A stretch of DNA of 64,000 bases from an uncultured Pseudomonadales bacterium (lineage in GTDB: Bacteria; Patescibacteriota; Microgenomatia; UBA1400; PJMF01). Below, one piece after another: positions 34,903-62,476 of the stretch. The number at the start of each line of letters is the position of its first letter. Position 1 is the stretch's first letter. The stretch spans positions 57,718 through 121,717 of the forward strand of contig CAYOQI010000004.1 of the NCBI GenBank assembly GCA_964406075.1, read 5' to 3'. Position numbers and translations under genes: made by a program. A model generated the notes under the pieces. That model made no database searches, had not been told where the DNA came from, and saw only the letters and a program-made list of their open reading frames with translations.

Positions 34903-35838
<936 letters not shown>

Positions 35839-36676: not shown

Positions 36677-36706
36677 TTGACACCATCAGGTAAAAAATGC
36701 CTTAAT
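36677..36706 (+). promoter_or_regulatory. candidate sigma70-type promoter for the giant gene
   Basis: A consensus -35 TTGACA (36677-36682) is followed by an 18-nt spacer and CTTAAT (36701-36706), about 65 nt upstream of the ATG at 36772. The -10 match is only 4/6. Confidence 0.25.
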
Positions 36707-36771
36707 GAAGTTGGACAAAAAATGTGACAATTGCTCTTAAAATGTCCCACATTTCGTAAGAACGTAAAAAA

Positions 36772-39700
36772 ATGATTCCCAGTGATCTGCCCCCACTAGT
36801 CTCCATTCATGAAGCTGCAAAGTTTCTTAAAGTTTCGACAAAAACTTTACGTCGTTGGGAAGATCGACACATTTTGTTACCAGCTCGAACTTCTGGCGGA
36901 CACCGAAGATATGATCTCAACGAGATCAAGGCCTTCAAAAAACAAAAGTATTCCAGTGGCTCAGTCGTTCATCAAACAGTACTCCCACTTGCAACAGTTA
37001 AACCACTTGAATCAAAAGTGGTTGACCAAACAGATATTCTTCAAGTTTCCAAACCACTCATCATCAAACCCATTGATCATTTTCCGTTAAAAACACCGAA
37101 AGTAACTGCATACAAGCCATTCCCAGAGACAATTACGAAAGTAAAAAAAACATTTGAGTTTCCTTCATTCCAAGTTAGAAACAACATTCCTCCTCAGGTC
37201 GAAATTCCCACAGAGAAAATAACGGATTTCCCTATTCCAACCACTCCACCTTCTTGGGTGTCTGTCTCAATCGTGTTGGCTTTTTTCTTTATTTCAGCTG
37301 CAGCATTCAGTATTCAAGGTTTCTTCAAGCCTCTAGTTGCAAAACATCCAGTCCTAAGTGAAATTGCGTATTCCCTCGAAAAGAGATTGGCAATAAATGT
37401 TTTTCCTAAAAAAGAAGTGATGATTGTTCAGGCTAACGATAGCAAAGTCTTGGGAGAACACTCCAGCTTAGATTTTTTAAAATTTAATATTAATGTCGAG
37501 TCTTCTTTTCGCGAGTTTGCGAACTTCCTCTCAGATGTCAATGTCGAAGGAAATGCCACGGTCAGTGGAATTTTAAGTGTGAACTCCGGCTCACTTCAAA
37601 CAACTTCTGAAACAGCTCAAGTTTTTGAAAACGCTTCTACTCTCTCAATTGCTGCGAACACTGGCACCACAACAGTGAACAACTCACTAAACGTGGGTGG
37701 AAATTTAACAGTAATTGGTTTGATAAATGATATTGCCGGTACTCTCAATCTTTCCGGTAATACTTTGACTTCAACTGGTGATCTAGTTATTGATCCTGGC
37801 GGAGGTGGTGTTTCGATTGGAGATGCCACTCCAGGAATTATAGATATGACAGATGGAGATTTTTTTGTTTCAGGCGATGTAGAAATTGACGGCATTTTAT
37901 ACGCACCAACTGCAAATATATCAGGCACTGCGAGTATCGGCACTGTCTTGGTGAATTCCGACAGTATCAATGACTTTACTGGAACAGGCTTGACTGTCTC
38001 TGATGGAGCTCTTCAAACCACAATTGGCACATCGGTTTCTTCCTCTGAAATTGAGAATGACACAATTTTGGAAGAAGATCTTAAAGTCTCAAATGATGCG
38101 GTAAATGGTTATGCTCTTACCTATGATAATTCGACCGGCGGATTCACTTGGACAGATATTGCATCCAGTCAAGTTTGGATCGATGGTGGCTCAGTCTACT
38201 ATCAAGCCACGACCACCGATGATGTGGTGATTGGAGGTACTTCCAGCTTGGGTAAACTCTCGGTCGATGGGGATAGTGATGAAATCCAACTCGTAGTTCA
38301 AGGCAATGGGACGCAAACATCAAACATCTTCGTAGTTGAAGACTCCAGTGGGACAGATCTTTTTGTGGTGAACAATACTGGAAGCATCACCATTGCGTCT
38401 GGCCAAGATCTCACCATTGGGTCGATTGGATTGAATGATGTCGGAACAGATAATGTCACTTCTGGAGCATCACTTATCGGAGTGTTTGATGAATTCACTA
38501 ACTCCTCAGCTACGACACTACAAGATGTCCTCGATGATTTTGACGCTGCTATTGGTGGTGGAGCTTCAAAGTGGGCTCAAGATACTGGCTTTGTTTACCT
38601 AGCAAGTACGACTGACGACATCGTTGTCGGTGGTGACACAATAGCTAATGGTTCTTTGTATTTTGATGAATCTGCGGGAAGTCTGTATCTCGGAACTAAT
38701 GAGGCTTTGAACGGCTCACTTACTCTCTACTCTTCAGGAGCAGGGATAACTGACCCTACGATTACCGCAGATGCTACAGGAAATGCGAATATCACTACCT
38801 CTGCCACAGCCTTAGTAAATATATTAGCGGGTAATTTGAAAGTGGGTAATGGCGCGCCCACTCAGACCTTAAATGGTGAAGATGCCTATGTCGAAGGCAC
38901 GCTTGAAGTTGATGGGATACTCTACGCTGGTTCTGCCACTACAGCCTTAACCGTAGCAAGCGGACTGATCGATGCTGATGCAATTGCTTTAACTCCAACC
39001 ACTGAGGGATTAAGTGGTATCTCATCAGGCTCAGGTTTAGCGGTATACAGCGACACACTTTCTCTTCTCCAAGGTTGTGGTGATGGTCAAGTTTTGAAGT
39101 GGAACGAAACAAATGATTCATGGGAATGTGCAAATGATACCGGCGCTTCTTTTGCCGTGGTAAACATTGAGAACAATGATGTTGCAGTCGGGAGCAATGT
39201 CGATTCCATTGATTTCTCTACTGATTTCTTAGTCACTGCTTCCCCATCAAACGAAGCCAATGTTGCAATCGCCGATGACATTTTAAACTTCACAGAATTC
39301 TCTGATGCCCTTACCTTAGATGCCGCTACCACCATCACCAATTCTTTAGCCGGCAACTTGACAATCGACCTCACTTCAACCGGTGATTTCGTCATTGCAG
39401 ATGGTGGAGTTGCCTTCTTTACCTTTACTGATGGTGGTGCTTTAACTCAGGCTGGAAGCGGTCAAATAACCTTGACTGGAAACGTTGATGCTACAAATGG
39501 TCTTGATATAACAGGCGCTTCCCTAACGGTTGGTGGTGCAAATGCCACGATCACCACAGGTGGAGCGTTAACATTGGCATCAACAATTACAGCAGCGACC
39601 GACGAGACCATTAACGGCGTTGATATCAATGCCGGTACCGTTTCAGATGTTGTGAATTTAACTATTAATTCAGGTGGTGACTTAACCATTGGTTCAATCG

Positions 39701-42700
39701 GTTTGAATGATGTGGGTTCAGACAACATCACTTCCGGTGCTTCCTTAGTGGGAGTGTTTGATGAATTCACCAATTCAAGTGCAACAACTGTTCAAGACGT
39801 CTTAGATGATCTCGATGCAGCAATTGGTGCTGGTGCAAGTAAATGGACTGACTCTGGTACTGTTACCTACCTTACTGACACGACTGACAGTATTACGATT
39901 GGGAGTTCAACCGAACTTGGTAAACTTGCAGTCGATGGAGATGCTGATGAAGTTCAGTTATTAGTTCAAGGTAATGGAACCCAGACCAATGCCCTTGCAA
40001 TTTTTGAAGATTCAACAGGTGCTGACCAATTTAGCATTAGTAATACTGGAAACGTGACGTTAGCTGGAGATTTAACAATCAGTGGTGGAAATATTACCTC
40101 TGCAACTACCTTTGATTCCACCGCAACCGTAACAGGAACATTAACAGCAAATGGCACTTTAGATGCCAATGGGATCTTCACACTTGGTGACAATGGCGAA
40201 ACCGGTGCAATTGATACTTCTGATTGGGATATTTCTGCCACCGGTGTACTCACTGGAGTGAGTGGTATTACCACTGATGGTGGATACACTCAATCAGGCG
40301 CGACCGGAAATACATTTTCAGGCAATGTCGATGCAACTTCTGGCCTTGATGTCACAGGTGCTTCTCTGACTGTCGGTGGTGCAAATGCCACGATCACTAC
40401 AGGTGGAGCGTTAACTTTAGCCTCCACAATTACAGCCAACACAGATGAAACAGTGAACGGAGTTGATATTAATGCAGGGACTGTTTCTGATGTGGTGAAT
40501 TTAACAATCAATTCTGGTGGTGACTTAACTATCGGGTCAATCGGACTCAACGATATTGGTTCAGACAACATCACTTCCGGTGCTTCTTTAGTTGGAGTCT
40601 TCGATGAGTTTACTAATTCAGATGGTCTTAATGTACAAGATGTCCTTGATGACTTTGATGCTGCTATTGGTGCAGGTTCTAGTAAATGGACAGACTCTGG
40701 TACTGTTACCTACTTAACTTCTACTACTGATGACTTAGCCGTGGGAGGATCCACTGTCCTGGCTTCCATGTTTGGCATTGATGAATCGGCAGGAAATTTC
40801 TACTTTGGCTATGACAACTCAGTTTCCCCTACCTTCAACTTTGAAGCCTCTGATGGTGATGCTGGTGAATTTGGATTTAATACCAATGACACATTCTTCT
40901 TCTCCAATGCACGAGTGGGTGTCGGAACGACCAATCCTTCAAGGTTATTACATGTAAGTGATTCTTCAGGGTCGCCCGCCATTAGAGTTACTGGTTCAGC
41001 CAGTGGTTCACCGTTTATTGAGTTCGAACAGTCAGGAAATGTTAGAGGTGTTTTTGGTTATGATAATACAACTTCGACCTTGCAACTTGCATATGGAGCG
41101 AATTTTAGTACTACCTTCCTATCACTAAATAGTTCTGGTTCTATGGGTCTTGGAACCTCTGCACCTGACGCCGCATTAGAAATCAATCATGCTACGGGTG
41201 ATAGTTTACGACTTACATACAATGACTCAAATGGTTCCGCTACCAGCTACACAGACTTCTCTCTCGCCTCTGATGGAGATTTAACAATTGATAGTGCTGG
41301 TGGTGCCATAAACCTTGGTGCAAATGATGACCTCAATATCACTGCTTCTACTGACTTAATCTTTGGAGGATCAACCTCTCTTGGTGAATCTACAGGAGCG
41401 GCTGATTCAGGAGCTTTCTTAACTGGTATTTTTGATGAATTTGATAACTCTGCTTCCTCTACAGTACAAGATGTGATTGATGATATTGATGCAGCTATTG
41501 GAAATAGAACATACACTGCTGATAACTACGTGACTGATGGTCAAACTCTGACAGCTTCCATCAATGCCCTTGATATTGCACTTGCCTCTGTTTCAGGCGG
41601 TGCGTACACAGGATGGAGTATTGACGTGGATGATGACGGAGCTGATCCAATTGCAAGTGGAGCTACGCTGAATGTTGATGCTGGAAGTAATGTGTCATTG
41701 ACCTACACAGCTGGTACCAATACGCTTTTAATTGCTGCTACTGATACAAATACTACCTACACAGCTGGGAATGATCTTGATCTTACCGGAACGGTCTTCA
41801 GCCTAGAAACCACCCTCGATTTTGTCGACACAATTAATTTAGCTGGGACAGGAACTCTCAACGGTCTTGATGCCGTTGATGCTACTGGAGAAAATACTAT
41901 TGAGGCCCTGATCTTTGATACAGATGCTGAAAGTATTACCGGAGTCTGGACGGTAGCTGACTCGACCAACTTCAGAATTGGTACCGGTGGTGACTTAACC
42001 TTCGCTCATGATGGTTCAAACTCTACTATTACTAGTACGACGGGTGACTTACTTATCGACAATACAAATGCCACCGGTTCAACCATTTTTGACCTGGGCA
42101 CAGATACTTCAGCCACTGATTTCCTTATTAGGAATGATTCTGGCACTCAACTCTTAAGCTTGAACGGTGCCGGGGCACTTCAGCTTGGAAGCAATGGTCA
42201 AGATGGTCAGTTCATCCTCTACAACGAACTAGGTGTAACAGATTACACAAACACAATTAACCCAAGTGGTTCTCAGTCCCAAAACATCACCTATACCCTA
42301 CCTCCTGATGATGGTGGCGCTGATAATTACGTTCTCACCACGGATGGAAATGGCGTATTGCAATGGGAATCCGTCACTGGTGCCGGTGGAGGAAGTGGAG
42401 ATCTGACAGATATCATTGCTGGGAACTACATTGATGTTCAAAACGCTGGTGGTCCGAGTCCTACTGTAGACTTTGATCCAACCGAACTTGAAGGAGTGAC
42501 TTGGGGTGCCTCATCTGGCGCCAGTGAACCTTTTACCTGGACGTATGATGTGACGAACTCCGGAACTGATCCTTCCATCACTTTCGCGGACAATGCCATC
42601 ACTCTCACAGCAGCAACTCTTACAGCTAGTGGTGATTTAACAATTCAAGGTGGAGACGCAACGCTTGGAATGGCTGGAACCGATGGTTCGCTCACTTTTT

Positions 42701-45700
42701 ACAATGAACTCGGAGCCACAGATAGAAGTGTTATCTTTAACGTCTCGGGATCGCAGTCAGAAGATATTGTCTACACTCTTCCTCCTGATAATGGAGCTGC
42801 TGACAACTATGTTCTTACCACTGATGGGTCAGGTGTGTTGCAGTGGGAATCAGTTTCCGGAGCTGGTGGCGGAACAGGTGATGTTACCGATATCGTTGCT
42901 GGCAACTACATTGATGTTCAAAATGCTGGTGGCCCAAGCCCAACCGTGGACTTTGATCCAACTGAACTTGAAAGTGTGACCTGGGGAGCACAAACTGGTG
43001 CTTCATTTACCTGGACGTTTAATGCTTCATCTGGCACTGATACCAGTATCGCCTTTGCGGATGGCAGTATCTCCCCCACACTCGCTGCAACTGGACTATT
43101 CAATGTCTTAACTGGAAATTTGAAGGTCGGAAATGGAACACCTGGACTTTCGCTCGATGGTGAAGATGCATATATTGAAGGCACTTTTGAAGTGGACGGC
43201 GCATCTCAATTTGATGGTGCTTTGACAACTAATGGAACGTTAACCGCAAACGGCCAGTTCACACTCGGAGATAATGGTGATACTGGGGCTATTAATACCT
43301 CAGATTGGGATATTTCTACTACTGGTAGTCTCACAGGAATTTCTGGAATTGCGAATGACGGAAGCTATACCCAAACCGGATCAAGTGCAAATGCATTTAC
43401 AGGTGTAACAACATTTAACACTGATGTTGATTTCACCTTCGCTGATACTGAAAATATTGCCATTACTAATACCGTAACAGGCACAAACGGTCTCGATCTT
43501 ATTTCTGCTATTATCACAAATCAAACTTCCTCTGGAACTCAAAGAGGTATTGTTATTTCTAATGCGAACGATGCTGCCAACGCCTCAACTGAGTCATTAA
43601 TCTTCTTAGACAATGCCGAAACTACCGCTTCTACCCTTACAGACGCAATACTCATTACTTCATCTGGTGCTGATGGTGGCATTGTCGATGCCATTGATGT
43701 TTCAGCTGGCAACATCACCAATGCGCTCAATGTCGGTGGGAATAATATCATCGGAACAACAGCAGTCATAAACTTTGATAACTTTGACATTGATGGTTCA
43801 GGAAACCTCGTAACTGCTGGAACATTAACAGCTGCCACGAATGAAACAATTAATGGGGTTGATATCAATGCTGGAACTGTTTCAGATGTGGTGAATTTAA
43901 CAATCAATTCTGGTGGTGACTTAACTATTGGTTCAATCGGTCTCAATGATGTCGGATCAGACAACATCACCTCTGGGGCTTCCCTAGTTGGCATGTTTGA
44001 TGAGTTTGATAACTCTGCGTCCACCACAGTTCAAGATGTTATTGATGACATTGATGCAGCTATCGGGAATCGAACCTACACTGCTGATAACTATGTGACT
44101 GACGGTCAGAGTTTAACCGCTTCGATTGATGCCCTTGATGTTGCTCTTGCTGCTGTCTCCGGTGGTGCGTACACGGGCTGGGATTTAGATGGTGATTCCG
44201 GAACCGCCGAAACCATTGCTAATGGCAATACGGTCAATATCCTCGGTGGCACCAATGGAATTGATACCGTCGTAAGTGCGACTGATACTTTAACTATTAA
44301 TTTAGATACTACGGAAATTGGTACAAGCACTTTTGGATCTGGATCAGGTTTTACTTGGACTTTTGACGCCGGTGCTACTGATCCCACACTTGCCTTTGCA
44401 AGTAACGCCATTACTATCGGGGGTGCTGCTACACTCAACTTTGGCGGTACTCTTGACCTCGGAACAAACACTCTCAGTGATGGCAACTTTAATGGTAACT
44501 GGGCATTTAATAGTGGAAATCTCTCCGGGATTGGAACCATCGGTGCTTCTGGTGCGATTACTGCTGCAACCGATGAGACCATTAACGGCGTTGATATTAA
44601 TGCAGGGACTGTTTCTGATGTGGTGAATTTAACAATCAATTCTGGTGGTGACTTAACTATCGGGTCAATCGGACTCAACGATATTGGTTCAGACAACATC
44701 ACTTCCGGTGCTTCTTTAGTTGGAGTCTTCGATGAGTTTACTAATTCAGATGGTCTTAATGTACAAGATGTCCTTGATGACTTTGATGCTGCTATTGGTG
44801 CAGGTTCTAGTAAATGGACAGACTCTGGTACTGTTACCTACTTAACTTCTACTACTGATGACTTAGCCGTGGGAGGATCCACTGTCCTGGCTTCCATGTT
44901 TGGCATTGATGAATCGGCAGGAAATTTCTACTTTGGCTATGACAACTCAGTTTCCCCTACCTTCAACTTTGAAGCCTCTGATGGTGATGCCGGAGAGTTT
45001 GGTTTTAATACCAGTGATTCCTTCTTCTTTAGTAACGCCTTAGTTGGTATTGGAACTGCAAGTCCAAGCGAACAGCTAGAAGTTGGAGGAAATATCGAGC
45101 TAACTGCTGCAGTTCCTCGTCTTGCGTTTGACAATACGAACGGTGATAACGATTGGTATATACAAGCTTCAGCCACTGGCTTTCAGTTTAGAAACTCATC
45201 TGATAACGTCAACTACCTTTTGATCAATCAAACAGGTCTTGTAAGCATTGGTGGAGATGATTCCCCTGATTATCTGCTAGAACTTTATGATGCCACAGCC
45301 ACTCCTACATTTGCCTTATCTGATGATGATGTTACACACGGACTCACAACACTTGCTCAGACAGATGTGTTTTCTCATCTAACATCACTCTCAACCACAG
45401 CCGGAGGTGCAGAACTTACCACAATCAGTGACACAGATGCTCAAGCACTATCGATCCGAGGCGTGATTGGTTCTACTGACCCGACCGATACGACTCCAGC
45501 AGTTAAGCTTGTAGGTGCAAAGAGTAATGGAACAACCGGTATGGCAGATCTTGGTGCAGCAGAAACAGTATTCCAAGTTGCAAACAATGATGACGCTTCA
45601 GCATTAACAATACTTGGGAATGGAAATGTTGGGATCGGTGATACAACGCCAGCTGCACTTCTGACCGTTGGAACATCAGATGCATTACAAATTGATGCTT

Positions 45701-52173: not shown

Positions 52174-52424
52174 AACACTTGCCGAACTGAATTCATTTTT
52201 GCAATTTCTTCATGAATACTCTTACTTTTCAGATTGAATTGGTATTTTTTGAACTCTGAGATCGAATATGAATATTTTTTATACTCAAAAAAGGGTTGAT
52301 CAATAAACATTTACTACTTTTTAGAAAAATAAGAATACAAACTCTCTTCAGTTTTTTCTCCACAAATTTCTTAATTCTCCTCTGGTATTTCTCAATAATA
52401 AAAGCAGATTAAGTCGGAGATTTT

Positions 52425-52433
52425 TGGTATTAT
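52425..52433 (+). promoter_or_regulatory. candidate extended -10 promoter element for the LamG-array gene
   Basis: TGgTATTAT (TG at 52425-52426, TATTAT at 52428-52433) lies 15 nt upstream of the ATG at 52448, implying a very short leader. No good -35 is present. Confidence 0.25.
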
Positions 52434-52447
52434 GTAGATAGAAATTC

Positions 52448-55400: not shown

Positions 55401-58400
55401 GTTCCTTAAATCTTGATTGGGAATACTGGAATGGTGTCGCTTGGACAAGCTTAGAATCCATTGTTGGCTTTACAGATACGACAAGTAACTTAACCCAAAG
55501 TGGCACCGTGTATTGGACTGCTCCACCGACCAACTGGAGACCATATGCGATGAACAGCAAAAATGAGTTCTACTATATTCGAGCTTCCTTAAATGCAGCA
55601 TCTGGTACGTACACCACAAGTCCTGTCGAAAATAGAATCACCACAACAACTCTCTACATTCGAAGCGACACGACACTTAATCTTGAAGATCAAACGTTTG
55701 TCATTCCCACCCAATTCCAACCATCTGTTTTCTGGAAAATGGATGAAGGTCAAGGAACAGCAATCAATGATAGTACTGGGAATAAAAACGACGGAACACG
55801 CCTCAATGCGGTGTGGCAAACGGAAGATATGTGTGTTTCAGGAAAGTGTCTCTATTTTGATGGGAGTGGCAGTCCAAGAGACTATCTGTATAGATTAAAT
55901 GATGACAGTTTCAACTTTACAGCCAGCGAAAGTTTCTCAATAAGTATTTGGATAAAACGTGAACCAATATCTACAGACCCGAATGTGATTCTTGCAAAAC
56001 ATAACTCAAGCGGTGGTGGATATAAAATTCGAATGGAAAATGATGGTGATATCAGTTGTGGAATTGATGATGACAGTACGTACACCCCTGATGCTGAGGC
56101 AATTAGTACGCTCGCCACCTATGATGATAATCAATGGCACCACATCGAGTGTGTCAAAGATGGTACTTCAAGTTTGTCGCTCTATATCGATGGAATACTT
56201 ATTAATACCAACTCCTCTATCTCTGGAGTAGGAAGTCTTGTAAACACGCAACCGTTTTACCTTGGAAATGGCGGTGACGGTTTATCAGATGCATTTAAAG
56301 GCTTCATGGATGAATTCAAAATGTATCCCTATGCTCGAACTGCAGATGAAGTAAAAGCCGACGCTATTGCAGGCGCTGGAAATCGTGGCTCCTCCGCTGT
56401 ACTCGGAGCACAGGACACCGCATTTCTAAATGACGGCTTAGCCGGTTATTGGTCACTCGATGAAGGAACCGCTAACTCTTGTAGTGGAGGAACAAACGAT
56501 AGCTGTGATAAATCTGGCAACAATAATGATGGTGCTTGGCAGGATAATGCCACAAGTACGCGTGGTAAGTTTAGTCGTGGCACAATTTATGATGGAACCA
56601 ATGACAATGTCACCATAACTGATCCAACGTCTGGGACATTAGATTTTGGGACAGGTGATTTTACCGTGTCAACCTGGGTGAACTTCAGTGCTATCGCGAA
56701 TGGAAGTACCCTGCTTGGGAAAAACTTCACTGGTTCGGGAGCCGGGTATGGTATGCGTATACAAACCACTTCCCCGACGATATGGGTGGGAGATGGTGCT
56801 ACTACGGCTGAGCTTGCCCACACGGCAGTACTTTCAAACTCTGCCTGGTATCATGTTGTTGGTGTCAGGAAAAACGGCACATTATATATATACGTGAATG
56901 GTGTACAAGGCTCATCCACTGCATCTTTTACTGGGAATGTGAGTACCACAGGAAATCTGTATTTGGGGGCCAGAGGAACGGGAGCAACAGCAAATATGGC
57001 TGGAAGTTTAGATGAGGTGAGAATATATAATCGGGCCCTTGCTCCTGCAGAAATAACTACTTTATATAACTGGGCACCCGGACCGGTAGGATATTGGAAG
57101 CTGGATGAAAATACGGGTATCAGTGCATATGATTCATCAGGTAATGCTAGCACTGGCACTCTCACAAATAGTCCAACCTGGACACCAGGAAAATTTGGTT
57201 CTGGAGTCAATTTAGGAGGAAATAGTTCCAATCATTATGTGAGCATTGCCGATAATGATCTCTACTCTCCTTCACTCTTTGCAGGAGCTACTATCCAGGC
57301 CTGGTTCAATCAAGACACCGCAACTGCAGCCCGAGACTGGATTGTGGCGAAGGGAAACACAAGTAACTTCGAGTGGGGTCTCGCCGTAAGCAATGGTGTT
57401 CTCTATTGTGAGATCTGGGATTCATCTGGTAGTAGTCAAGCCCAAGTCGTTGCAGGCGTGGTATCCACTGGAGCATGGCACTTCGCCTCTTGCACCATGG
57501 ATAATACCAATGGTGTTTATCTCTATCTTGATGGAGTGTTGCAGGGATCTTCCCCAGGACTTACTGGTGGAATGAGTAATACTACCTCTGCTGTACAAAT
57601 TGGTAATCGTGCCGATGGTGGAGACAATAATTTTGACGGAACTATCGATGAAGTAAAAATCTACAACTATGTTCGTACTCCCGGCCAGATGCTTGAAGAC
57701 ATGAATGGTACTCACCCGGTTGGAGGCTCCCCGGTGGGTTCTCAAATACTTAATTGGAAATTTGATGAGGGCAATGGAACCACAGCAAATAACGAAATAA
57801 CTGGTGGAACAAACGGCACCCTTACCAGTATGGCCACTGCCCCATCGACTTCTTCTTCAGGGTGGACTGCCTCAGGAAAATTTAATAAAGCCTTAGTTTT
57901 TGATGGGACAGACGACAAAGTCGTCATTGACACTGCAAGCGACGCAAATGTGGACTTCAATGCAAGTGAACAGTTTTCTTTGTCGGCCTGGGTGTACTCC
58001 ACCACTGTTCCCACTACTGCAACCGACGAGGATTTAATTATAGGAAAATGGGACGAAACAAGTTCTCAACGTGCATACAGAGTGTTCCTCGAAAATGATG
58101 ATACTGATTCAACAGGTCACATCCGAGTTGAAGTCATGGATGAATCCACCGGAGGAAATGAAATTCTCTCAGCAGTTACGAGTAATGACACTATCTCACA
58201 AAACACTTGGTATCACGTCACCATGACATTTAATGGAACGATCACTGGAGCTGCAAATAGTCTGAAGGTATATCTAGATGGCAAGCAACTTGGTACCAAC
58301 GCAGCGAATGCAAGTTTCGTAGGTATTGATGACGTCACCTCTGATTTCACGGTAGGTGATTATGATGCCACAGACAGTGACGGAGATCTTGATGGCTTTA

Positions 58401-59968
58401 CTGGTCGAATAGATACTGTGCAAGTGTATGGTGCAGAGCTTACAGCAGATCAAGTAAAAATTGTCATGAATGCGAACTCCGGTGTCAACTTCTCTACGGG
58501 TAGAGTTGAAACTGATCAGTCTATTGATGGAACACCATCAAACATAGCTGGATATTGGAATCTGAACGAGAACACAGGGACAACAGTGAATGATACATCT
58601 GGTAATGCAAACGCATTAACGATGAGTGGTGTGTCTGCTAGCTCTTGGGTACCTGCCAAATACGGATCAGGCTTGTACTTCGATGGAGCTGATGATTATC
58701 TCTCTATTGCTGATGATGCTGATTTTGATTTTGCTGCAGTTGATAGTTTTACTATTTCTGCCTGGGCAAAAAACTCTGGCTCACTTGCTTCAAGTCAACA
58801 TATTTTCGTCAAAGGTGACACCACTGATGGGGGCTGGAAACTCTACTTAAATACTGCCGGAAATTACTGTGTCCATTTTGCAGACAACATTAATAATGCC
58901 CCGACTGACTCAGCGTGTTCTTCATCAGGAGGATATGACTACAATGACAATCAATGGCATCACATTACTGCAGTGAAAGTAGCTAACTCTGAACTGCATC
59001 TCTATATTGATGGTGTGCTGGTAGCCTCTGATACAGCATTTTCATACTCCGGAACACTTGCAAACACTGGATCCTTATTGGTGGGCATAGGACAAAGTAC
59101 TACTACAGAAGAATTCACAGGTATCTTGGATGAATTAAAAATTTCGAGAACACCACTTACTGCCTCCCAAGTAGCTTTTGAATACAATCGTGGCCGTTCA
59201 CTAGCCTGGTGGAAATTTGATGACTGTACTGGAACTACTGCATACAATGCTGCCCAAAACGGTAACGGCGATGCGATTGGAAGTAATGGCACCATTACCA
59301 TAGGTGCAACCGGTTCCAACACATCCGCAGGTTCTTGTAATGTCGTGAACACCGCCACAGCTTGGTACAACGGGTTGGTCGGTAAATTTAATAACTCCAT
59401 TGATTTCGATGGCACTGATGATTATGTTTCTGTCGCAGATACAGAGATACTTCGACCAGAGGCAGGTAGCTGGTCCGTATCCTTGTGGGCAAACCCTGCA
59501 AATATCAATCAAAATTCTCCACTTATTACCAAGCGCCTAAACAGTGGGAATTTTGAACAATGGTCACTCTATATCTGTGGAAACATTGGATGTAGTACCG
59601 ATGGACAGCAAGTGCGCTTTGCTTTTGTTGAGGCCGATGGAACTACTGATCGCAAAGCACTCAGCACTCTAGACGTTGTTGATGGCAACTGGCATCATTA
59701 CGTGGGCATAGCCAGTAAAGACGATGACTCCATTATTTTATACAGGGACACAATAGAGCTAACTTCAACTTCTACAACAAATGGTTCCTGGCCTACTGTC
59801 AATAATACTGATCCTGTCCGCATCGCAAACGACAATGGAAGTGTTTACTATAATGGTCAAATTGATGATGTGCAGGTTTTTAACTATACTTTGTCTCAGG
59901 AACAAGTTAAAAAATTGTATAATGAAGGCTCTAGTGCTCGGTTTGGACCAGAAAGTGGAACTCCTTAA
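52448..59968 (+). CDS. giant (2506 aa) membrane-anchored protein with about 9 tandem LamG/concanavalin-A-like lectin modules
   Basis: An N-terminal signal anchor (KVVVLLLLLTLLLLPIVYSLI) is followed by a repeated module signature: (G)YWKLDEGTGT..DSSGN.N.GT ... F(D/T)G.DDYV ... F(T/S)(I/V)SAW(V/I) ... W(Y/H)H(V/I) ... L.LY(I/V)DG ... G.(I/L)DE(V/F)(R/K)IY. Seven W-x-(L/F/M)-(D/N)-E-type module starts can be counted, plus two or more degenerate ones. Confidence 0.9.
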   Translation: MFSFRRRPLSSVSRKRSPKVVVLLLLLTLLLLPIVYSLITRPNQGTAAPLNATEDSTSITITSPGKYRAVIQKGDTTDYILFYDLAEDAGNPDPTHEFKGPCVLETNTYCLRDDSNRMTTLIEVTDTVVKVRVMGRFNNEASTDYLDDDTPLYFPEVIENYAFTRDGVSVMNRTDFATGTGVTFDADSGHNGYDWLGVYSDVTDGAYDDTANNNYGDGATEAQISADGEFSNTNSYFHMPGTGSSTYQDAFVGIHRDGWYSDLNSSGVHEWNWDEAESGTQDLITAQEQNYNSSRRHEAKWYFLLKSESDLDTEAEREALNNEMINADILSYTVGETSYEMPVTATAINFDADTDYVNVPDNSAYDFGDTADYSVEAWMMRNGNPISGDNPIVSKRLCCGASGWEFQIRLSSARMRLQMTDGTDTYDLEGSTVLSDQTWYHVAAVFDQDNASNSIIYINGVAETMTRTGTIGNLGSMASTAGLGFGVGEPGIGNYNSFSGRIAEVRIWDDVRTAAEIRENMFRQIDPASANLVGYWKLDEGTGTAVHDSSATGANGTIVGGATWDSVNERKADHFNEFEFAHTLQSTAQNAQYDIDAGASNVSTTANGAISDNATTVTVTSTTGFASSGIAYIDGDKFSYTGTTATTFTGVPSSGEHSVIAHVTGSVVAQFTRSNTNFKVGGYQSTEKPAQITKEGISQKEGVDFSASVKPVTDGYFAQDLSFYADFASTTVDVGSNLTNSGCTLTQGGNDYTLGFITVCDGGSDDMTFTSTGNIDYAKGALEFSIAAFSTSADSTERTYFRITDGTDEFRFRKTSGNTLEFLIDEGASTYTESISSANYSWGFLDTVHIRLEWDDSASTTEDEMKIYINGRLPTSTDASGFTGANVSPGTTFRLGNSADSGGTHCNCLIDEFKIYDFNGSGDQVGLAKVGAGGGGGDYFYNPNNNLTLSFAPVDAGNRGEYLYLGADAKVNGYNFDLATNGVGSSLNLDWEYWNGVAWTSLESIVGFTDTTSNLTQSGTVYWTAPPTNWRPYAMNSKNEFYYIRASLNAASGTYTTSPVENRITTTTLYIRSDTTLNLEDQTFVIPTQFQPSVFWKMDEGQGTAINDSTGNKNDGTRLNAVWQTEDMCVSGKCLYFDGSGSPRDYLYRLNDDSFNFTASESFSISIWIKREPISTDPNVILAKHNSSGGGYKIRMENDGDISCGIDDDSTYTPDAEAISTLATYDDNQWHHIECVKDGTSSLSLYIDGILINTNSSISGVGSLVNTQPFYLGNGGDGLSDAFKGFMDEFKMYPYARTADEVKADAIAGAGNRGSSAVLGAQDTAFLNDGLAGYWSLDEGTANSCSGGTNDSCDKSGNNNDGAWQDNATSTRGKFSRGTIYDGTNDNVTITDPTSGTLDFGTGDFTVSTWVNFSAIANGSTLLGKNFTGSGAGYGMRIQTTSPTIWVGDGATTAELAHTAVLSNSAWYHVVGVRKNGTLYIYVNGVQGSSTASFTGNVSTTGNLYLGARGTGATANMAGSLDEVRIYNRALAPAEITTLYNWAPGPVGYWKLDENTGISAYDSSGNASTGTLTNSPTWTPGKFGSGVNLGGNSSNHYVSIADNDLYSPSLFAGATIQAWFNQDTATAARDWIVAKGNTSNFEWGLAVSNGVLYCEIWDSSGSSQAQVVAGVVSTGAWHFASCTMDNTNGVYLYLDGVLQGSSPGLTGGMSNTTSAVQIGNRADGGDNNFDGTIDEVKIYNYVRTPGQMLEDMNGTHPVGGSPVGSQILNWKFDEGNGTTANNEITGGTNGTLTSMATAPSTSSSGWTASGKFNKALVFDGTDDKVVIDTASDANVDFNASEQFSLSAWVYSTTVPTTATDEDLIIGKWDETSSQRAYRVFLENDDTDSTGHIRVEVMDESTGGNEILSAVTSNDTISQNTWYHVTMTFNGTITGAANSLKVYLDGKQLGTNAANASFVGIDDVTSDFTVGDYDATDSDGDLDGFTGRIDTVQVYGAELTADQVKIVMNANSGVNFSTGRVETDQSIDGTPSNIAGYWNLNENTGTTVNDTSGNANALTMSGVSASSWVPAKYGSGLYFDGADDYLSIADDADFDFAAVDSFTISAWAKNSGSLASSQHIFVKGDTTDGGWKLYLNTAGNYCVHFADNINNAPTDSACSSSGGYDYNDNQWHHITAVKVANSELHLYIDGVLVASDTAFSYSGTLANTGSLLVGIGQSTTTEEFTGILDELKISRTPLTASQVAFEYNRGRSLAWWKFDDCTGTTAYNAAQNGNGDAIGSNGTITIGATGSNTSAGSCNVVNTATAWYNGLVGKFNNSIDFDGTDDYVSVADTEILRPEAGSWSVSLWANPANINQNSPLITKRLNSGNFEQWSLYICGNIGCSTDGQQVRFAFVEADGTTDRKALSTLDVVDGNWHHYVGIASKDDDSIILYRDTIELTSTSTTNGSWPTVNNTDPVRIANDNGSVYYNGQIDDVQVFNYTLSQEQVKKLYNEGSSARFGPESGTP

Positions 59969-60142
59969 GCTTCTCTTCTTACGATCATTCAAGAAAGAAA
60001 CTCATTCAGTAAAACTTCAGTTTCCCTCTTACATTTTTCTCTCTATAAACAAGCTTTTTTTTATGAATTTTCTACTTGTATCTCATTGCAAAATACCGGT
60101 ACAATGACTACTTAATATAGTGAAGGTAACTTAATACGCACC

Positions 60143-62296
60143 ATGGCACAACCGTCCACTCGCCCACAATCACTTGATCTCATCATTCCCAAGCTCGTTG
60201 AATATATGCTGTATGGAGCAGTGATTTTAACTCCATTATTCTTTTTACCGTTTCTGCAAAATATTTTTGATACATCAAAGTATGCCCTGCTCTTGATAGT
60301 CACATTGATTTCACTTGGACTTTGGACGGTAAATACGTTGAGACATAAAGTATTACGATTTACTTTTCATCCTTTTACCTTTCCATTAATTCTTTTATCG
60401 TTCAGTATTTTAGTTTCTTCAGTATTGTCACCGGTGTATTTTCTTGAAGATTTTGCGGGAATTTTTGGACTCATCTTTTTCTTAAACTTACTTATTCTGT
60501 TTGGTTCAAGTTTAGTAAAAGTCAAACAAAGTAAAACATTTATTGATATGGCAAGTATTGGGGCCATTTTATTGAGCATCGTTTCTCTTCTCCAGCTCGC
60601 TGGAGTTGGACCAACAGTTGCATTAAATTCTTTACTGACCTTACAGTTTCCAAATACTTTTGCATTCTCTCCCGCTGGATCTCCATTGATTGGTTTATCT
60701 GCATTAGTAACCATCTTGGTACCAATGGTTGTGATGTTGGTTACTAATAAAGCATGGAAAGAAAAAATTCCGACAATGGTAGCTACTGCTATCGTCGCGA
60801 TCGGAGTACTTCTTCATGTCGGAGTAATGGTTGCAAAGCCTGAATTTCGACCTAACCTGCTTCCTTTATCAGCAAACTGGTTAATCTCCGTAGAAATTTT
60901 GAAGAACCTCCCCAGAGCCCTTTTTGGAGTTGGTCCTCAAAATTTTATGGATGCGTATGCTCAATTTCGACCAGTGAGCTTAAACAGTAATGACACATGG
61001 CAACTACTCTATCAATCAGGATCAAACACTCCATTCTTTATTTGGGTCAGTGTCGGGACTGTGGGATTGATTGCTTGGATCTTACTTTTTATTCAAAGTT
61101 TACTATTGCTCAAATCATCTCCAATATCCGCTCGCCCAGTTGGAATCATGGTCGTCACTGCTTTTATTATCGAGTTATTTATTCCGTTTAATATTGTCCT
61201 TGTCGCTCTACAAGCACTGGGTATGTTGTTCTGGATCGCGACACTCAGAGCTGAGCATCATCCCAAAAGTTCAGATATTGTCGTTAGCTTAAATGCCTTA
61301 AAAGTTACTCGCCCTGAAGACTACCCAACAGAAAAGAGAATGGGATCTTTGACATACATCACCACATTTTTTGTTCTGGTTGTAATCGCAGTCAGTACGT
61401 ACGGTCTCTTTAGAGTTATGGCCGGAGAGTTTTTCTTCTTCCAATCACTCCAAGCTGCTCAAGCTAGCGATGTCAAAAAACTGTATGAGATTCAACAAAA
61501 AGCCATTCAATACAATCCATATCGAGATATTTATCGCAGAACCTATGCCCAAACCAACTTTGCAGTGGCATTAAATTTGGCTCAAAAAGAAGGTATTACC
61601 GAAGAAGAAAAAGCCACACTTTCTAAATTACTTCAGCAAGCAATTCGAGAGGCTCGTATTGCCGCAAGTTTGAACCCTGCTCGCTCAGTCAATTGGAGAG
61701 TTTTAGGTGATATTTATCGAGGATTAATTGGTTCAACCAAGAATGCCGAACAGTGGTCAGTCGCATCATATGTCCAAGCCGTTCAAACTCATCCCAATGA
61801 CCCAACGTTGCGTGTTGATCTAGGTGGAATTTTCTTGAGAACCAAAAACCCTGATCAAGCAGCTCAATTGTTCCAACAAGCAGCACAGCTCAAACCAGAT
61901 TACGCCAATGCCTACTACAACTGGGCCCAAGCATTAATTTTACTCAATCGACCAGATACAGCTGTCTTAGCGTATGAGAAAGTTCTCACCTTACTTAAAC
62001 CTGATTCAGCCGATTACGTCAAAACTCAAAAGGAGTTAGTGGATTTGAGAGAAAAAGCCAAGGCCGCTGCAGCTGCTCAACCAAAACCACCTGCTACTCA
62101 AACCGCAACTGGATCAGCTACGACACCCACACCTCAACCAACACCAAGTAATACTCAACCTGAGGAAGCTGCCTTACCTGAGTCAGTCAAGCCATCACCA
62201 GGTTTGTTAGATCAAGAACCTGAAAATGTCCAGCTCGATCCTAATCAAGCCAGTCAATCAGCCACTCCCCAACCCAATCCAACTGCTGCTCCGTAA
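60143..62296 (+). CDS. Wzy_C (O-antigen ligase-like) polytopic membrane protein fused to C-terminal TPR repeats and a Pro/Thr/Gln-rich tail
   Basis: 717 aa. About 12 helices occupy the first ~440 aa, including FGVGPQNFMDAY (compare FGVGFNHF in the 17436 paralogue). TPR-like repeats follow (YRRTYAQTNFAVAL, WRVLGDIYRG, AQLFQQAAQLKPDYANAYYNWAQALI). The tail is AAQPKPPATQTATGSATTPTPQPTPSNTQPEE. Confidence 0.7.
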   Translation: MAQPSTRPQSLDLIIPKLVEYMLYGAVILTPLFFLPFLQNIFDTSKYALLLIVTLISLGLWTVNTLRHKVLRFTFHPFTFPLILLSFSILVSSVLSPVYFLEDFAGIFGLIFFLNLLILFGSSLVKVKQSKTFIDMASIGAILLSIVSLLQLAGVGPTVALNSLLTLQFPNTFAFSPAGSPLIGLSALVTILVPMVVMLVTNKAWKEKIPTMVATAIVAIGVLLHVGVMVAKPEFRPNLLPLSANWLISVEILKNLPRALFGVGPQNFMDAYAQFRPVSLNSNDTWQLLYQSGSNTPFFIWVSVGTVGLIAWILLFIQSLLLLKSSPISARPVGIMVVTAFIIELFIPFNIVLVALQALGMLFWIATLRAEHHPKSSDIVVSLNALKVTRPEDYPTEKRMGSLTYITTFFVLVVIAVSTYGLFRVMAGEFFFFQSLQAAQASDVKKLYEIQQKAIQYNPYRDIYRRTYAQTNFAVALNLAQKEGITEEEKATLSKLLQQAIREARIAASLNPARSVNWRVLGDIYRGLIGSTKNAEQWSVASYVQAVQTHPNDPTLRVDLGGIFLRTKNPDQAAQLFQQAAQLKPDYANAYYNWAQALILLNRPDTAVLAYEKVLTLLKPDSADYVKTQKELVDLREKAKAAAAAQPKPPATQTATGSATTPTPQPTPSNTQPEEAALPESVKPSPGLLDQEPENVQLDPNQASQSATPQPNPTAAP

Positions 62297-62322: not shown

Positions 62323-62352
62323 AAAAAAGCTGACTAAAAGTCAGCTTTTTTT
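62323..62352. terminator. bidirectional rho-independent terminator
   Basis: The stem AGCTGAC (62328-62334) / GTCAGCT (62340-62346) has loop TAAAA and is flanked by A6 upstream and T7 downstream. It can therefore terminate both the plus-strand Wzy_C-TPR gene and the minus-strand tRNA transcription unit. Confidence 0.8.
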
Positions 62353-62405: not shown

Positions 62406-62476
62406 TGGACTCACGGGGAATTGAACCCCGAACTATGCAATGCGAATGCATCGGTATACCGTTTACCTATGAGCCC
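62406..62476 (-). tRNA. tRNA-Ala (anticodon CGC)
   Basis: Hand-folded: GGGCTCA TA GGTA-AACGGTA-TACC G ATGCA TTCGCAT TGCAT AGTT CGGGG TTCAATT CCCCG TGAGTCC A. The G3:U70 identity pair is present. Length is 71 nt with no encoded CCA. Confidence 0.85.

What the first reader, a model, noticed from the sequence alone, without database searches (positions are those of the whole stretch)
36772..62296. Candidate three-gene surface attachment locus: HTH-anchored giant fibre + LamG lectin array + Wzy_C-TPR protein (25.5 kb, 40% of the window)
The three co-directional genes encode 5133-aa, 2506-aa and 717-aa proteins. They are bounded upstream by a 1.1-kb promoter region and downstream by a strong bidirectional terminator (62323-62352). 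The third protein combines a Wzy_C/O-antigen-ligase-type membrane domain with periplasm- or exterior-facing TPR repeats. This is the fold family that includes the PglL/PilO O-oligosaccharyltransferases, which glycosylate pilins and other surface proteins. The working hypothesis, which is inference, is a self-contained system. The fibre and lectin array would mediate contact with another cell or substrate. The Wzy_C-TPR enzyme would modify or anchor these Ser/Thr-rich proteins. The cytoplasmic HTH of the fibre would couple surface state to gene expression. I am not aware of a characterised system with this composition.
Basis: inference. Interest (0 to 1): 0.8.

Follow-up and report, generated by a model that had tools for sequence, protein, structure and literature searches.

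The report
Membrane-anchored giant fibre surface locus
A tiny, probably host-dependent bacterium (Patescibacteria) carries a conserved gene neighbourhood for a 5133-residue phage-tail-fibre-like surface fibre with a DNA-binding domain on its cytoplasmic end, a sugar-binding-type domain array and a WaaL-fold membrane protein. The fibre belongs to a very large family that I could not find described in the literature I searched.

Summary

New findings:
- **Assembly module.** The fibre's last ~580 residues mark a huge family (1,523 representatives at E<=1e-30). The module opens with a phage phi29 gp12-type autochaperone domain. Its invariant Asp aligns with the first residue of gp12's C-terminal fragment.
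- **Cytoplasmic head.** Of 66 family representatives of at least 2000 aa, 47 start with an integrase SAM-like domain and 4 with a MerR HTH, nearly all followed by a predicted TM helix.
- **Synteny.** A C homolog lies downstream of the giant in 5 of 5 informative look-ups. A giant lies within 10 kb of C in 17 of 26 fully flanked loci. The A-B-C order recurs in two further genomes. Elsewhere a type IV pilin triplet takes the place of B.

Glycosylation by C and signalling by the HTH remain untested, and the C family has no conserved histidine in its membrane domain. Verdict: a real, conserved surface locus, a new variant of known kinds.

The parts
34903..35829 (-). Candidate accessory gene 'u308'. 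It has a signal peptide (from Met51), an external beta-tulip domain (ORF residues 86-214, nt 35188-35574) paralogous to the fibre's autochaperone domain, and a C-terminal two-helix membrane hairpin.
   Evidence: hmmsearch with the beta-tulip profile A6 gives E 7e-25, without the DxAEY motif. Homologs sit in the same divergent position upstream of MerR-type giants in L089 (56% identity). A 255-aa gene occupies that position in the JGI contig, but its homology could not be tested because no DNA was available. No Pfam family at E<=0.001.
35830..36771 (.). Long AT-rich intergenic region between the divergent u308 and A genes (942 nt, or 1,092 nt if u308 starts at Met51). It presumably holds the promoter.
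   Evidence: Only short ORFs are present. Promoter-like matches are at chance level. No Rfam family. Repeats are unremarkable. No motif is shared with upstream regions of two other MerR-type giants.
36772..52173 (+). Gene A: 5133-aa giant fibre protein (P0104), a type II membrane protein.
   Evidence: ORF. It is a member of a family defined by the C-terminal module. No PHROG hit apart from the N-terminal HTH, and no PADLOC hit apart from a generic HTH match.
36802..36939 (+). A residues 11-56: cytoplasmic MerR/excisionase-type helix-turn-helix (HTH only, with no MerR dimerisation or effector region).
   Evidence: Pfam MerR E 2.2e-9, MerR_1 E 1.6e-8, HTH_17 E 3.2e-7. NCBIfam HTH_BldC E 1.2e-7, below its cut-off. 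The same fusion occurs in P0195, P0167 and P0206.
37258..37326 (+). A residues ~163-185: single transmembrane anchor. It follows a ~100-residue Pro/Lys-rich linker.
   Evidence: Hydropathy analysis. There is no N-terminal signal peptide and the N-terminal region is basic, so N-in orientation is inferred.
37327..50424 (+). A residues ~186-4551: extracellular body built from several kinds of repeated modules (copies 40-98% identical), rich in Thr, Gly, Ala, Ser and Asp.
   Evidence: Chunk-wise self-BLAST, composition, no significant Pfam family. The stretch between about residues 560 and 4290 gave no BLAST alignment to the homologous giant of L089.
50425..50871 (+). A residues 4552-4700: phi29 gp12 D4-type beta-tulip autochaperone domain. 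The predicted autocleavage site is Ala4560|Asp4561 (Asp codon at 50452-50454) in the motif GADLAEYY.
50434..52170 (+). A residues 4555-5133: the whole conserved C-terminal module. It comprises the beta-tulip domain, a low-confidence helical and beta-rich middle, and a terminal beta-sandwich (about residues 5044-5129, nt 51901-52158).
52448..59968 (+). Gene B: 2506-aa protein with an N-terminal hydrophobic anchor (residues ~20-40, nt 52505-52567) and eight LamG / concanavalin-A-like domains (residues 353-2494, nt 53504-59929).
   Evidence: Pfam Laminin_G_3 E 6.4e-159 with 8 stretches. Domain boundaries. Homologs lie directly downstream of all four MerR-type giants. It is fast-evolving: 31% identity in the relative whose C is 66% identical.
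60143..62296 (+). Gene C: 717-aa polytopic membrane protein. It has a WaaL-fold core (residues ~11-370, nt 60173-61252), an extra TM helix (residues 405-427, nt 61355-61423), an outward-facing TPR domain (residues 444-645, nt 61472-62077) and a disordered Pro/Thr/Gln-rich tail (residues 646-717, nt 62078-62293).
62323..62351 (.). Perfect 13-bp hairpin flanked by an A-run and a T-run: a bidirectional intrinsic-terminator-like site closing the locus.
   Evidence: Terminator scan. It lies between the stop of C (62296) and a minus-strand tRNA-Ala at 62405-62476.

Best explanation
The locus encodes surface-attachment hardware of a Patescibacteria (Microgenomates-type) cell.

A is a type II membrane protein. 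It has a small MerR-type HTH in the cytoplasm and one TM helix. About 4,400 residues of repeated modules lie outside the cell. A ~580-residue C-terminal assembly module follows. That module starts with a phi29 gp12-type beta-tulip autochaperone. By analogy with gp12, the module nucleates trimerisation of the fibre and is then cut off at Ala4560|Asp4561. The mature product would be a phage-tail-fibre-like trimer rooted in the membrane by its N-termini (inferred).

B is an anchored or released array of eight LamG lectin-type domains. It diverges quickly, as expected for a contact or specificity protein (inferred).

C has the fold of the O-antigen ligase WaaL plus an outward-facing TPR domain. 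That is the architecture of the protein O-oligosaccharyltransferases WsfB and PglL. It most likely uses the TPR to dock a surface-protein substrate (the fibre, the lectin array or pilins). It would then transfer a lipid-linked glycan made by the GT2, GT4, Wzx-like and Wzy_C genes found elsewhere in the window (inferred, not shown).

The cytoplasmic DNA-binding head is a general feature of the family, but its role is unknown. Membrane-tethered gene regulation is one option.

Shown here: domain content, folds, family size, the N-terminal architecture and the conserved gene neighbourhood. Inferred: trimerisation, cleavage, glycan transfer and adhesion.
For: Domains and folds.

Family: 1,523 representatives at E<=1e-30. 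Of 66 members of at least 2000 aa, 47 have an integrase SAM-like head and 4 a MerR head, nearly all followed by a predicted TM helix.

Synteny:
- 17 of 26 fully flanked C loci have a giant within 10 kb.
- 5 of 5 informative giant-centred look-ups have a full-length C homolog downstream.
- The A-B-C order is seen in the JGI contig and in L091.
- A and B overlap or abut in the JGI contig and in L090.

C: WaaL fold, outward TPR, and the Wzy_C+TPR architecture in WsfB and PglL (PMC2943079). pglL genes sit next to their pilin substrates in 21 of 31 cases (PMC3643930). Glycan-assembly genes are present in the window.
Against: - There is no direct evidence for glycosylation, cleavage, trimerisation, surface exposure or co-transcription.
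- C itself fails the Pfam Wzy_C threshold. Its family has no column with His at 30% or more in the membrane domain, whereas WaaL H338 and PglL H349 are functionally important (PMC3643930).
- In many relatives the giant and C are separated by oppositely oriented pilin genes, or by ComM and DprA, so this is not a conserved operon. 9 of 26 C loci have no giant within 10 kb.
- C is flanked by Obg in most loci and is far more conserved than A or B. That fits a housekeeping envelope enzyme.
- Many of the related loci come from one class, so shared ancestry inflates the synteny counts.
- The middle of the A C-terminal model is low confidence.
Confidence: 0.5

Rival explanations
1. The neighbourhood reflects shared descent only. 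C is a core envelope enzyme, for example a TacL-, Wzy- or WaaL-like ligase or polymerase that acts on a glycopolymer or glycolipid. It sits in a conserved housekeeping block (LeuRS ... C - Obg - LysM/M23 - Rho). The variable surface genes (giants, LamG arrays, pilins) accumulate next to it without any enzymatic relationship.
For: Obg lies directly downstream of C in most loci. One group of loci has LeuRS, a ~225-aa gene and C with no giant nearby. 9 of 26 fully flanked loci lack a giant. C is 66% identical in the closest relative while B is only 31%. Basic residues in the external loop are conserved but no histidine is, which looks more like Wzy than like PglL. TacL as a Wzy_C-type lipoteichoic acid ligase is from my own knowledge.
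Against: The linkage survives rearrangement. Arrangements seen include tandem-adjacent (gaps of 4 and 37 nt in L078 and L025), tandem with intervening genes, and convergent in the Shapirobacteria-type loci. All 5 informative giant-centred look-ups find C downstream, including with integrase-SAM-type giants. A second, TPR-less and bona fide Wzy_C gene at 17436-18788 could serve the polymerase or ligase role.
Confidence: 0.28
2. C is a pilin-directed O-oligosaccharyltransferase or pilus-associated factor, analogous to PglL-ComP or TfpO-PilA. Its real partners are the type IV or competence-type pilin triplets. In this genome the pilins have moved away, and A and B are only neighbours.
Against: In the window the pilin triplet is at 12577-14076, 46 kb from C. 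The four MerR-type loci show LamG rather than pilins next to the giant. The pilins are mostly on the opposite strand to C. No PglL_A hit was found, and the family has no conserved histidine in its membrane domain.
Confidence: 0.12
3. The fibre is chiefly a transmembrane signalling device. Contact or tension on the giant ectodomain would change the DNA binding of its cytoplasmic HTH, either while tethered (as with ToxR and CadC) or after intramembrane proteolysis (as with Notch). Adhesion would be secondary. This can also be an add-on to the best explanation.
For: DNA-binding-type domains of two unrelated folds recur at the same cytoplasmic position: 47 integrase SAM-like and 4 MerR among 66 large members. 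The first ~540 residues are as conserved as the C-terminal module (35% against 33% with L089). A stand-alone 258-aa gene with a MerR HTH lies just upstream of a giant ORF in L086.
Against: No operator-like motif is shared upstream of three MerR-type giants. The region matches only the HTH core of MerR, with no dimerisation helix. No protease partner or target genes were identified. The domains could serve another role, such as tethering to the nucleoid or protein-protein contacts.
Confidence: 0.1

Closest known systems
Bacteriophage phi29 gp12 pre-neck appendage (tailspike) with its C-terminal D4 autochaperone (MEROPS/Pfam Peptidase_G2 IMC domain)
   Different: A is a chromosomal, membrane-anchored cellular protein about six times longer than gp12. 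Its C-terminal module is ~580 residues, against ~160 in gp12, and it ends in a K1-lyase_C-like beta-sandwich. The Pfam Peptidase_G2 gathering score is not reached. Cleavage is not shown.
Protein O-oligosaccharyltransferases with Wzy_C plus C-terminal TPR: WsfB (Paenibacillus alvei S-layer glycosylation) and PglL (Neisseria)
   Same: A polytopic Wzy_C/WaaL-fold membrane domain followed by a TPR. WsfB also comes from a bacterium without an outer membrane. C is encoded beside candidate surface-protein substrates, as pglL genes usually are.
   Different: C fails the Pfam Wzy_C threshold and shows no PglL_A match. The family has no conserved histidine to correspond to WaaL H338 / PglL H349. An extra TM helix precedes the TPR. 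No activity has been shown.
WaaL O-antigen ligase (Cupriavidus metallidurans, PDB 7tpj)
   Different: Identity is only 11%. A profile of the C family finds no WaaL by sequence. No lipid A-core acceptor is expected in this lineage, going by general knowledge of Patescibacteria envelopes. C also has an added TPR domain.
Membrane-tethered one-component regulators (ToxR, TcpP, CadC)
   Same: An N-terminal cytoplasmic DNA-binding domain, a single TM helix and an extracytoplasmic sensing part.
   Different: Those proteins have winged-helix OmpR-type domains and small periplasmic domains. A has a MerR/excisionase-type HTH (an integrase SAM-like domain in most relatives) and a ~4,900-residue ectodomain. 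DNA binding was not tested.
Giant surface proteins and concanavalin-type lectins of ultra-small bacteria (Omnitrophota giant genes; Patescibacteria 'concanavalins')
   Same: They are very large, repeat-rich, predicted extracellular proteins of putative episymbionts or predators. LamG/concanavalin-type proteins are already proposed to mediate attachment in Patescibacteria (PMC12911398).
   Different: The Omnitrophota giants have many TM regions and SecA-type domains (bioRxiv 10.1101/2023.11.21.568195). They do not show the head-TM-fibre-autochaperone layout found here.

Membership tests
MerR-family transcription regulators | N-terminal MerR-type winged HTH | tested here: met
   Pfam MerR 37.4 bits (cut-off 28.2), MerR_1 34.9 (21.6) and HTH_17 31.0 (27), at residues 10-59.
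MerR-family transcription regulators | Dimerisation coiled coil and C-terminal effector-binding region following the HTH | tested here: not met
   Only positions 2-47 of the 69-position MerR_1 model are matched. The HTH is followed by a Pro/Lys-rich linker and a TM helix. NCBIfam hits (BldC, HspR, CarH) are all far below their cut-offs.
phi29 gp12-type intramolecular chaperone (Pfam Peptidase_G2, IMC autoproteolytic cleavage domain) | Beta-tulip fold of the gp12 C-terminal D4 fragment | tested here: met
phi29 gp12-type intramolecular chaperone (Pfam Peptidase_G2, IMC autoproteolytic cleavage domain) | Sequence match to the family model at the curated threshold | tested here: not met
   Pfam Peptidase_G2 scores E 0.11 and 12.4 bits against a 25-bit cut-off. 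A profile of 24 family domains does find gp12 as its best PDB hits (E 0.0026 and 0.013).
phi29 gp12-type intramolecular chaperone (Pfam Peptidase_G2, IMC autoproteolytic cleavage domain) | Conserved Asp (and Glu) at the autocleavage site | tested here: met
   The Asp is invariant, and the Ala and Glu are at least 90% conserved, in the 'D-x-A-E' motif of 24 sequences. The Asp aligns with residue 1 of the gp12 C-fragment 'DFAEYF', which is gp12 residue 692. That this is the catalytic or cleavage position rests on my memory of Xiang et al. 2009.
phi29 gp12-type intramolecular chaperone (Pfam Peptidase_G2, IMC autoproteolytic cleavage domain) | Actual trimer-dependent autocleavage and release of the C-terminal domain | not testable with these tools
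   This needs expression of a fragment of A and mass spectrometry.
LamG / concanavalin A-like lectin-glucanase superfamily (Pfam Laminin_G_3) | Match to the domain model above threshold | tested here: met
   523.5 bits against a 27.6-bit cut-off, with 8 stretches. Eight domains were delimited. NCBIfam TafC scores 254 bits against a 410-bit cut-off, so B is not a TafC member.
Wzy_C / O-antigen ligase superfamily (WaaL, Wzy, PglL, PilO) | Pfam PF04932 match at the gathering score | tested here: not met
   No hit for C at E<=0.01 or for its N-terminal 450 aa at E<=5. 9 of 34 family members do hit (best E 2.8e-15), so homology is transitive.
Wzy_C / O-antigen ligase superfamily (WaaL, Wzy, PglL, PilO) | WaaL-type polytopic fold with a large external loop | tested here: met
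WaaL ligases and PglL-type O-oligosaccharyltransferases | Functionally important His (E. coli WaaL H338 / PglL H349) in the external loop | tested here: not met
   No alignment column in the membrane domain has His at 30% or more among 34 family members. A motif-level alignment places 'GSN' of C opposite 'AHH' of the window's bona fide Wzy_C protein, but at low hhalign probability. The residues are taken from PMC3643930.
WaaL ligases and PglL-type O-oligosaccharyltransferases | Two conserved Arg residues in external loops (WaaL R215 and R288 / PglL R224 and R298) | tested here: inconclusive
   K/R254 (97%) and K/R276 (100%) are conserved in the large external loop. No residue-level structural superposition was available to equate them with the WaaL arginines.
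PglL-type O-oligosaccharyltransferases | PglL_A motif (Pfam PF15864) | tested here: not met
   PF15864 is not among the Pfam families hit by C, not among the 25 families most often hit by its 34 homologs, and not in the precomputed Pfam lists for its homologs.
TPR repeat proteins | TPR matches above threshold and a helical repeat fold | tested here: met
Conserved three-gene unit (giant fibre, LamG array, WaaL-fold/TPR protein) | Same gene order in other genomes | tested here: met
   The JGI 3300078620 contig has a MerR giant (3679 aa), a LamG protein (2436 aa) and a TPR protein (696 aa). L091 has an integrase-SAM giant (5631 aa), a LamG protein (1951 aa) and a C homolog (653 aa). A-B is seen in L089 and L090, and B-C in L088. 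The order is not universal, because many loci carry pilins in place of LamG.

The most novel reading that the evidence does not exclude
The giant fibres of Patescibacteria would be a widespread class of single-pass 'surface-to-chromosome' transducers. A phage-fibre-like ectodomain thousands of residues long would sense contact with a host cell. It would control a DNA-binding head (integrase SAM-like, or MerR/excisionase-type as here) on the cytoplasmic side, either while tethered or after release by proteolysis. Attachment would then directly reprogramme the episymbiont. The conserved WaaL-fold/TPR neighbour would mature or glycosylate the fibre.
Probability: 0.12. Interest if true: 0.9.

Novelty: new variant of a known kind. 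Interest (0 to 1): 0.66.

Why it matters
Patescibacteria are thought to make up a large share of bacterial diversity, and many appear to live attached to other cells. How they attach, and how they sense attachment, is largely unknown.

This locus is one example of a very large and apparently undescribed protein family: 1,523 clusters at 50% identity with E<=1e-30. The layout is consistent across the family. It has a cytoplasmic DNA-binding-type head, one TM helix, a hypervariable giant ectodomain and a conserved phage-gp12-type assembly module. It also has a conserved WaaL-fold/TPR neighbour.

If the model is right, it gives concrete and testable handles:
- a predicted autocleavage site;
- a candidate glycan transferase with candidate substrates beside it;
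- a candidate route from the cell surface to DNA.

It would also show that phage fibre assembly modules have been co-opted on a large scale for cellular surface structures.

Tried and rejected
**Searches that gave nothing useful**
- A profile of the C membrane domain against PDB sequences gave no WaaL hit.
- The whole-module profile A3 and the single beta-tulip sequence gave no PDB sequence hit. Only a 24-sequence domain profile reached gp12.
- PHROGs gave nothing beyond the HTH.
- PADLOC gave only a generic HTH match (mad1), so this is not a known defence system.

**Prophage or tail-fibre remnant: rejected.** The context is housekeeping genes (ATP synthase, iPGM, LeuRS, Obg, tRNAs), the protein has an N-terminal TM anchor, and there are no phage genes.

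**No result**
- A scan of IMG/VR for close relatives of the C-terminal module found none.

**Upstream region of A**
- No Rfam family was found.
- No repeat stood out from an AT-rich background.
- Promoter-like matches were at chance level.
- No motif is shared with the upstream regions of two other MerR-type giants.

**Other**
- TafC fimbrial membership of B was rejected. The score is below the cut-off and reflects LamG similarity only.
- Literature searches for this family or for a Wzy_C-TPR protein in CPR bacteria found nothing specific.

Full report
**1. Observation**

The three co-directional ORFs are exactly as reported: A 36772-52173 (5133 aa), B 52448-59968 (2506 aa) and C 60143-62296 (717 aa). 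Together they span 25,525 nt, 39.9% of the window.

The flanks are housekeeping genes. Upstream on the minus strand lie an ATP synthase operon, iPGM, LeuRS and ComEA/ComEC. Downstream on the minus strand lie two tRNA-Ala genes and Obg. This is a chromosomal locus, not a prophage.

Homologs of C come from Pacebacteria, Woesebacteria, Amesbacteria, Shapirobacteria and other Microgenomates-type Patescibacteria. That identifies the kind of organism. Many of those records are titled 'uncultured Pseudomonadales', which looks like a labelling error.

The hairpin at 62323-62351 is a perfect 13-bp stem between an A-run and a T-run. No terminator-like site lies in the A-B or B-C gaps. The upstream gap is 942 nt, or 1,092 nt if the upstream gene starts at its signal-peptide methionine. 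Promoter-like matches there are no more frequent than chance.

**2. Protein A**

Residues 11-56 match MerR, MerR_1 and HTH_17 above Pfam thresholds. Only the HTH core is matched. A Pro/Lys-rich linker and one hydrophobic helix (~163-185) follow. The HTH should therefore be cytoplasmic and the remaining ~4,950 residues outside the cell.

The body has no significant Pfam or PHROG match. It is a mosaic of several repeated modules whose copies are 40-98% identical.

Across relatives only the two ends are conserved: roughly the first 540 residues and the last 570-840 residues.

**3. The C-terminal module of A**

A profile of the last ~580 residues was searched against 1.84 billion cluster representatives. 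It found 19,913 proteins at E<=1e-3, 8,024 at E<=1e-10 and 1,523 at E<=1e-30. Among the 150 best hits the module is at the extreme C-terminus in almost all, and the proteins range from under 300 to 7,697 residues.

The AlphaFold model is confident (pLDDT >90) for the first ~135 and last ~85 residues of the module and poor in between.

- A profile of 24 family copies of this domain finds gp12 as its best two PDB sequence hits (E 0.0026 and 0.013).
- In that alignment the family's invariant Asp, in 'GADLAEYY' (A Asp4561), falls on the first residue of the gp12 C-fragment 'DFAEYF', which is gp12 residue 692.
- Some homologs also hit Peptidase_S74 and K1-lyase_C.

gp12's D4 region is a tandem beta-tulip autochaperone required for trimer assembly, and its similarity to some bacterial adhesins has been noted (bioRxiv 10.1101/216911). 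From memory of Xiang et al. 2009, gp12 is cleaved just before that Asp.

I therefore infer that A assembles as a phage-fibre-like trimer nucleated from its C-terminus, and that it is probably cleaved at Ala4560|Asp4561. The Pfam Peptidase_G2 threshold is not met, and cleavage is not shown.

**4. The cytoplasmic head is a family trait**

I examined the 66 best-scoring family representatives of at least 2000 residues.

| N-terminal class | Count |
|---|---|
| Integrase SAM-like domain | 47 (44 of them followed by a TM helix) |
| MerR-type HTH plus TM (A, P0195, P0167, P0206) | 4 |
| TM helix only | 3 |
| Neither (probably truncated) | 12 |

Pfam confirmed Phage_int_SAM_1 in 10 of 10 N-termini tested (E 5.8e-25 to 7e-3) and MerR in P0195 and P0206.

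In L086 a stand-alone 258-aa gene with a MerR HTH, homologous to A's N-terminal region, sits just upstream of a giant ORF.

NCBI labels one member only as 'phage integrase SAM-like domain-containing protein'. I found no paper describing the family.

**5. Protein B**

B has an N-terminal hydrophobic anchor and eight LamG / concanavalin-A-like domains. Such proteins are already regarded as typical attachment candidates in Patescibacteria (PMC12911398).

B evolves quickly. In the relative whose C is 66% identical, the upstream LamG array is only ~31% identical to B.

**6. Protein C**

The positive-inside rule and the helix count give a ten-helix core with both ends in the cytoplasm. An eleventh helix (405-427) then carries the TPR domain (444-645) and a Pro/Thr/Gln-rich tail to the outside.

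Wzy_C plus a C-terminal TPR is the reported architecture of the S-layer O-oligosaccharyltransferase WsfB and of PglL (PMC2943079).

Against a canonical mechanism, no alignment column of the membrane domain has His at 30% or more. WaaL H338 / PglL H349 is functionally important (PMC3643930). Conserved K46, D/E251, K/R254, K/R276, N281 and W286 line the external loops. A motif-level alignment puts 'GSN' of C where the window's bona fide Wzy_C protein has 'AHH' (low probability).

The window also encodes a GT2, a GT4, a Wzx-type flippase and that second Wzy_C protein. Lipid-linked glycan donors are therefore plausible.

**7. Synteny**

*Around 80 C homologs from different species (10-kb flanks):*
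- 28 loci have a giant ORF ending in the A module.
- 22 have two or more type IV pilin-like genes within 4 kb.
- 8 have a LamG protein.
- Among the 26 loci with at least 8 kb on both sides, 17 have a giant within 10 kb (mostly 1.3-3.7 kb away), 10 have the pilin cluster and 5 have LamG.

Arrangements differ. Some loci have giant and C in tandem and almost abutting. Others have a giant, three minus-strand pilins, C and Obg. Others have C and the giant convergent.

*Starting from giants:*
- All five look-ups with enough downstream sequence show a C-family protein downstream.
- Four of these are full-length or contig-cut homologs at 25-34% identity (L083/84, L085, L091, L092).
- In the JGI contig it is a 696-aa TPR protein, recognised from Pfam hits only because no DNA was available.
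- The exact A-B-C order recurs with a MerR-type giant (3679 aa, then 2436-aa LamG, then 696-aa TPR). It also recurs with an integrase-SAM-type giant (5631 aa, then 1951-aa LamG, then 653-aa C homolog).
- All four MerR-type giants have a LamG array directly downstream, overlapping or abutting in two cases.
- The upstream ATP synthase, iPGM and u308 block is also shared.

Relatedness among the genomes also inflates the counts.

**8. A possible fourth component**

The divergent upstream gene (34903-35829, minus strand) encodes a signal peptide, a beta-tulip domain paralogous to A's (E 7e-25, without the cleavage motif) and a two-helix membrane hairpin. It keeps this position in L089 (56% identity). 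A 255-aa gene occupies the same position in the JGI contig.

**9. Interpretation**

The best-supported reading (confidence about 0.5) has three parts:
- A is a membrane-rooted fibre assembled like a phage tail fibre.
- B is a fast-evolving lectin-type array.
- C is a WaaL-fold/TPR partner that docks and probably glycosylates surface proteins.

The system would serve attachment. Domains, folds, family size, architecture and neighbourhood are shown. Trimerisation, cleavage, glycan transfer and adhesion are inferred.

The rivals are:
- C as a housekeeping envelope enzyme linked only by descent (0.28).
- C as a pilin-directed enzyme (0.12).
- The fibre as primarily a signalling device (0.10). This last one can also be an add-on to the main reading.

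The components are all of known kinds. The head-TM-giant-autochaperone layout and its conserved WaaL-fold/TPR neighbour appear undescribed. I therefore rate the finding a new variant of a known kind, of considerable interest but entirely computational.

Noticed in passing
window 34903-35829 (-): The small protein upstream of A combines an external beta-tulip domain with a C-terminal two-helix hairpin ('GIEAIGRNP...'). The hairpin looks like an F-type ATP synthase c subunit (Pfam ATP-synt_C covers model positions 3-60 of 60, but only at E 3.1) and lacks an obvious carboxylate. The gene heads the strand that carries iPGM and the ATP synthase genes. No other a or c subunit gene was identified among the window ORFs of at least 150 aa.
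   Followed up: partly
window 4772-7961 and 17436-18788: Glycan-assembly genes: a GT2 (4772-5560), a GT4/GT1 (5588-6715), a Wzx-type Polysacc_synt flippase (6705-7961, minus strand) and a second, TPR-less protein that passes the Pfam Wzy_C threshold (17436-18788). They could supply lipid-linked glycan donors.
   Followed up: partly
window 8041-14076: A surface and secretion cluster: a sortase (8041-8817, minus), a VirD4/TraG-like coupling ATPase (9304-11454), a VWA-domain protein (11455-12564, minus) and three small genes at 12577-14076 (minus). One of the three has an N_methyl pilin motif. In many relatives the equivalent pilin triplet lies directly beside the C homolog.
   Followed up: partly
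window 22743-24865 (-); L083 12471-14938; L085 12997-16460: DNA-uptake genes recur around these loci. ComEC and ComEA are in the window. ComM (Mg-chelatase-like) and DprA lie between the giant and the pilins in relatives, and one pilin there has a faint ComGE hit. It is not known whether the giants' DNA-binding heads relate to DNA uptake.
   Followed up: no
L085 2217-12814; L091 10001-26896: Giant-family genes in relatives carry intein signatures (Intein_splicing, Hint). In L085 the giant appears to be split into two parts by a PDDEXK-type gene and two small ORFs.
   Followed up: no
L083 12076-12432; L088 9074-9436; L091 2518-2898 and 7233-7625: Small four-helix 23S_rRNA_IVP / bAvd-type genes lie near the giant or C genes in several relatives. 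bAvd is the accessory protein of diversity-generating retroelements. No reverse transcriptase was seen in the stretches read, and none of these genes is in the window.
   Followed up: no
window 38001-60000: G+C content is 43-46% across A and B, against about 35-41% in most of the rest of the window. This probably reflects the Gly/Ala/Thr/Asp-rich composition, but foreign origin was not excluded.
   Followed up: no
window 62519-62755 (-): A 78-aa ORF with a GIY-YIG-like N-terminus ('YYTYLLQ...TIYTGYSSDLKTRLKEH') lies between the two tRNA-Ala genes. The GIY-YIG assignment is by eye only.
   Followed up: no
window ~40372-40821 and ~44557-44949 (A residues 1201-1350 and 2596-2726): Two copies of one repeat module in A are 98% identical at the protein level. 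Repeats this similar can be collapsed or mis-joined in short-read assemblies, so the exact length of A should be checked with long reads.
   Followed up: no
L003, L006, L009 and many other loci (record titles): Dozens of TPA metagenome-assembled genomes with typical Patescibacteria gene content are titled 'uncultured Pseudomonadales' or 'uncultured Gammaproteobacteria', and one each 'Clostridia' and 'Bathyarchaeia'. These are probably taxonomy labelling errors in the public records.
   Followed up: no
L086 5547-15895: Two giant-family genes lie in tandem: a 1368-aa integrase-SAM-type protein with a weak Peptidase_S74 hit, then a separate 258-aa gene with a MerR HTH, then another giant ORF of at least 1639 aa. 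This suggests that heads and fibres can be split or recombined.
   Followed up: no
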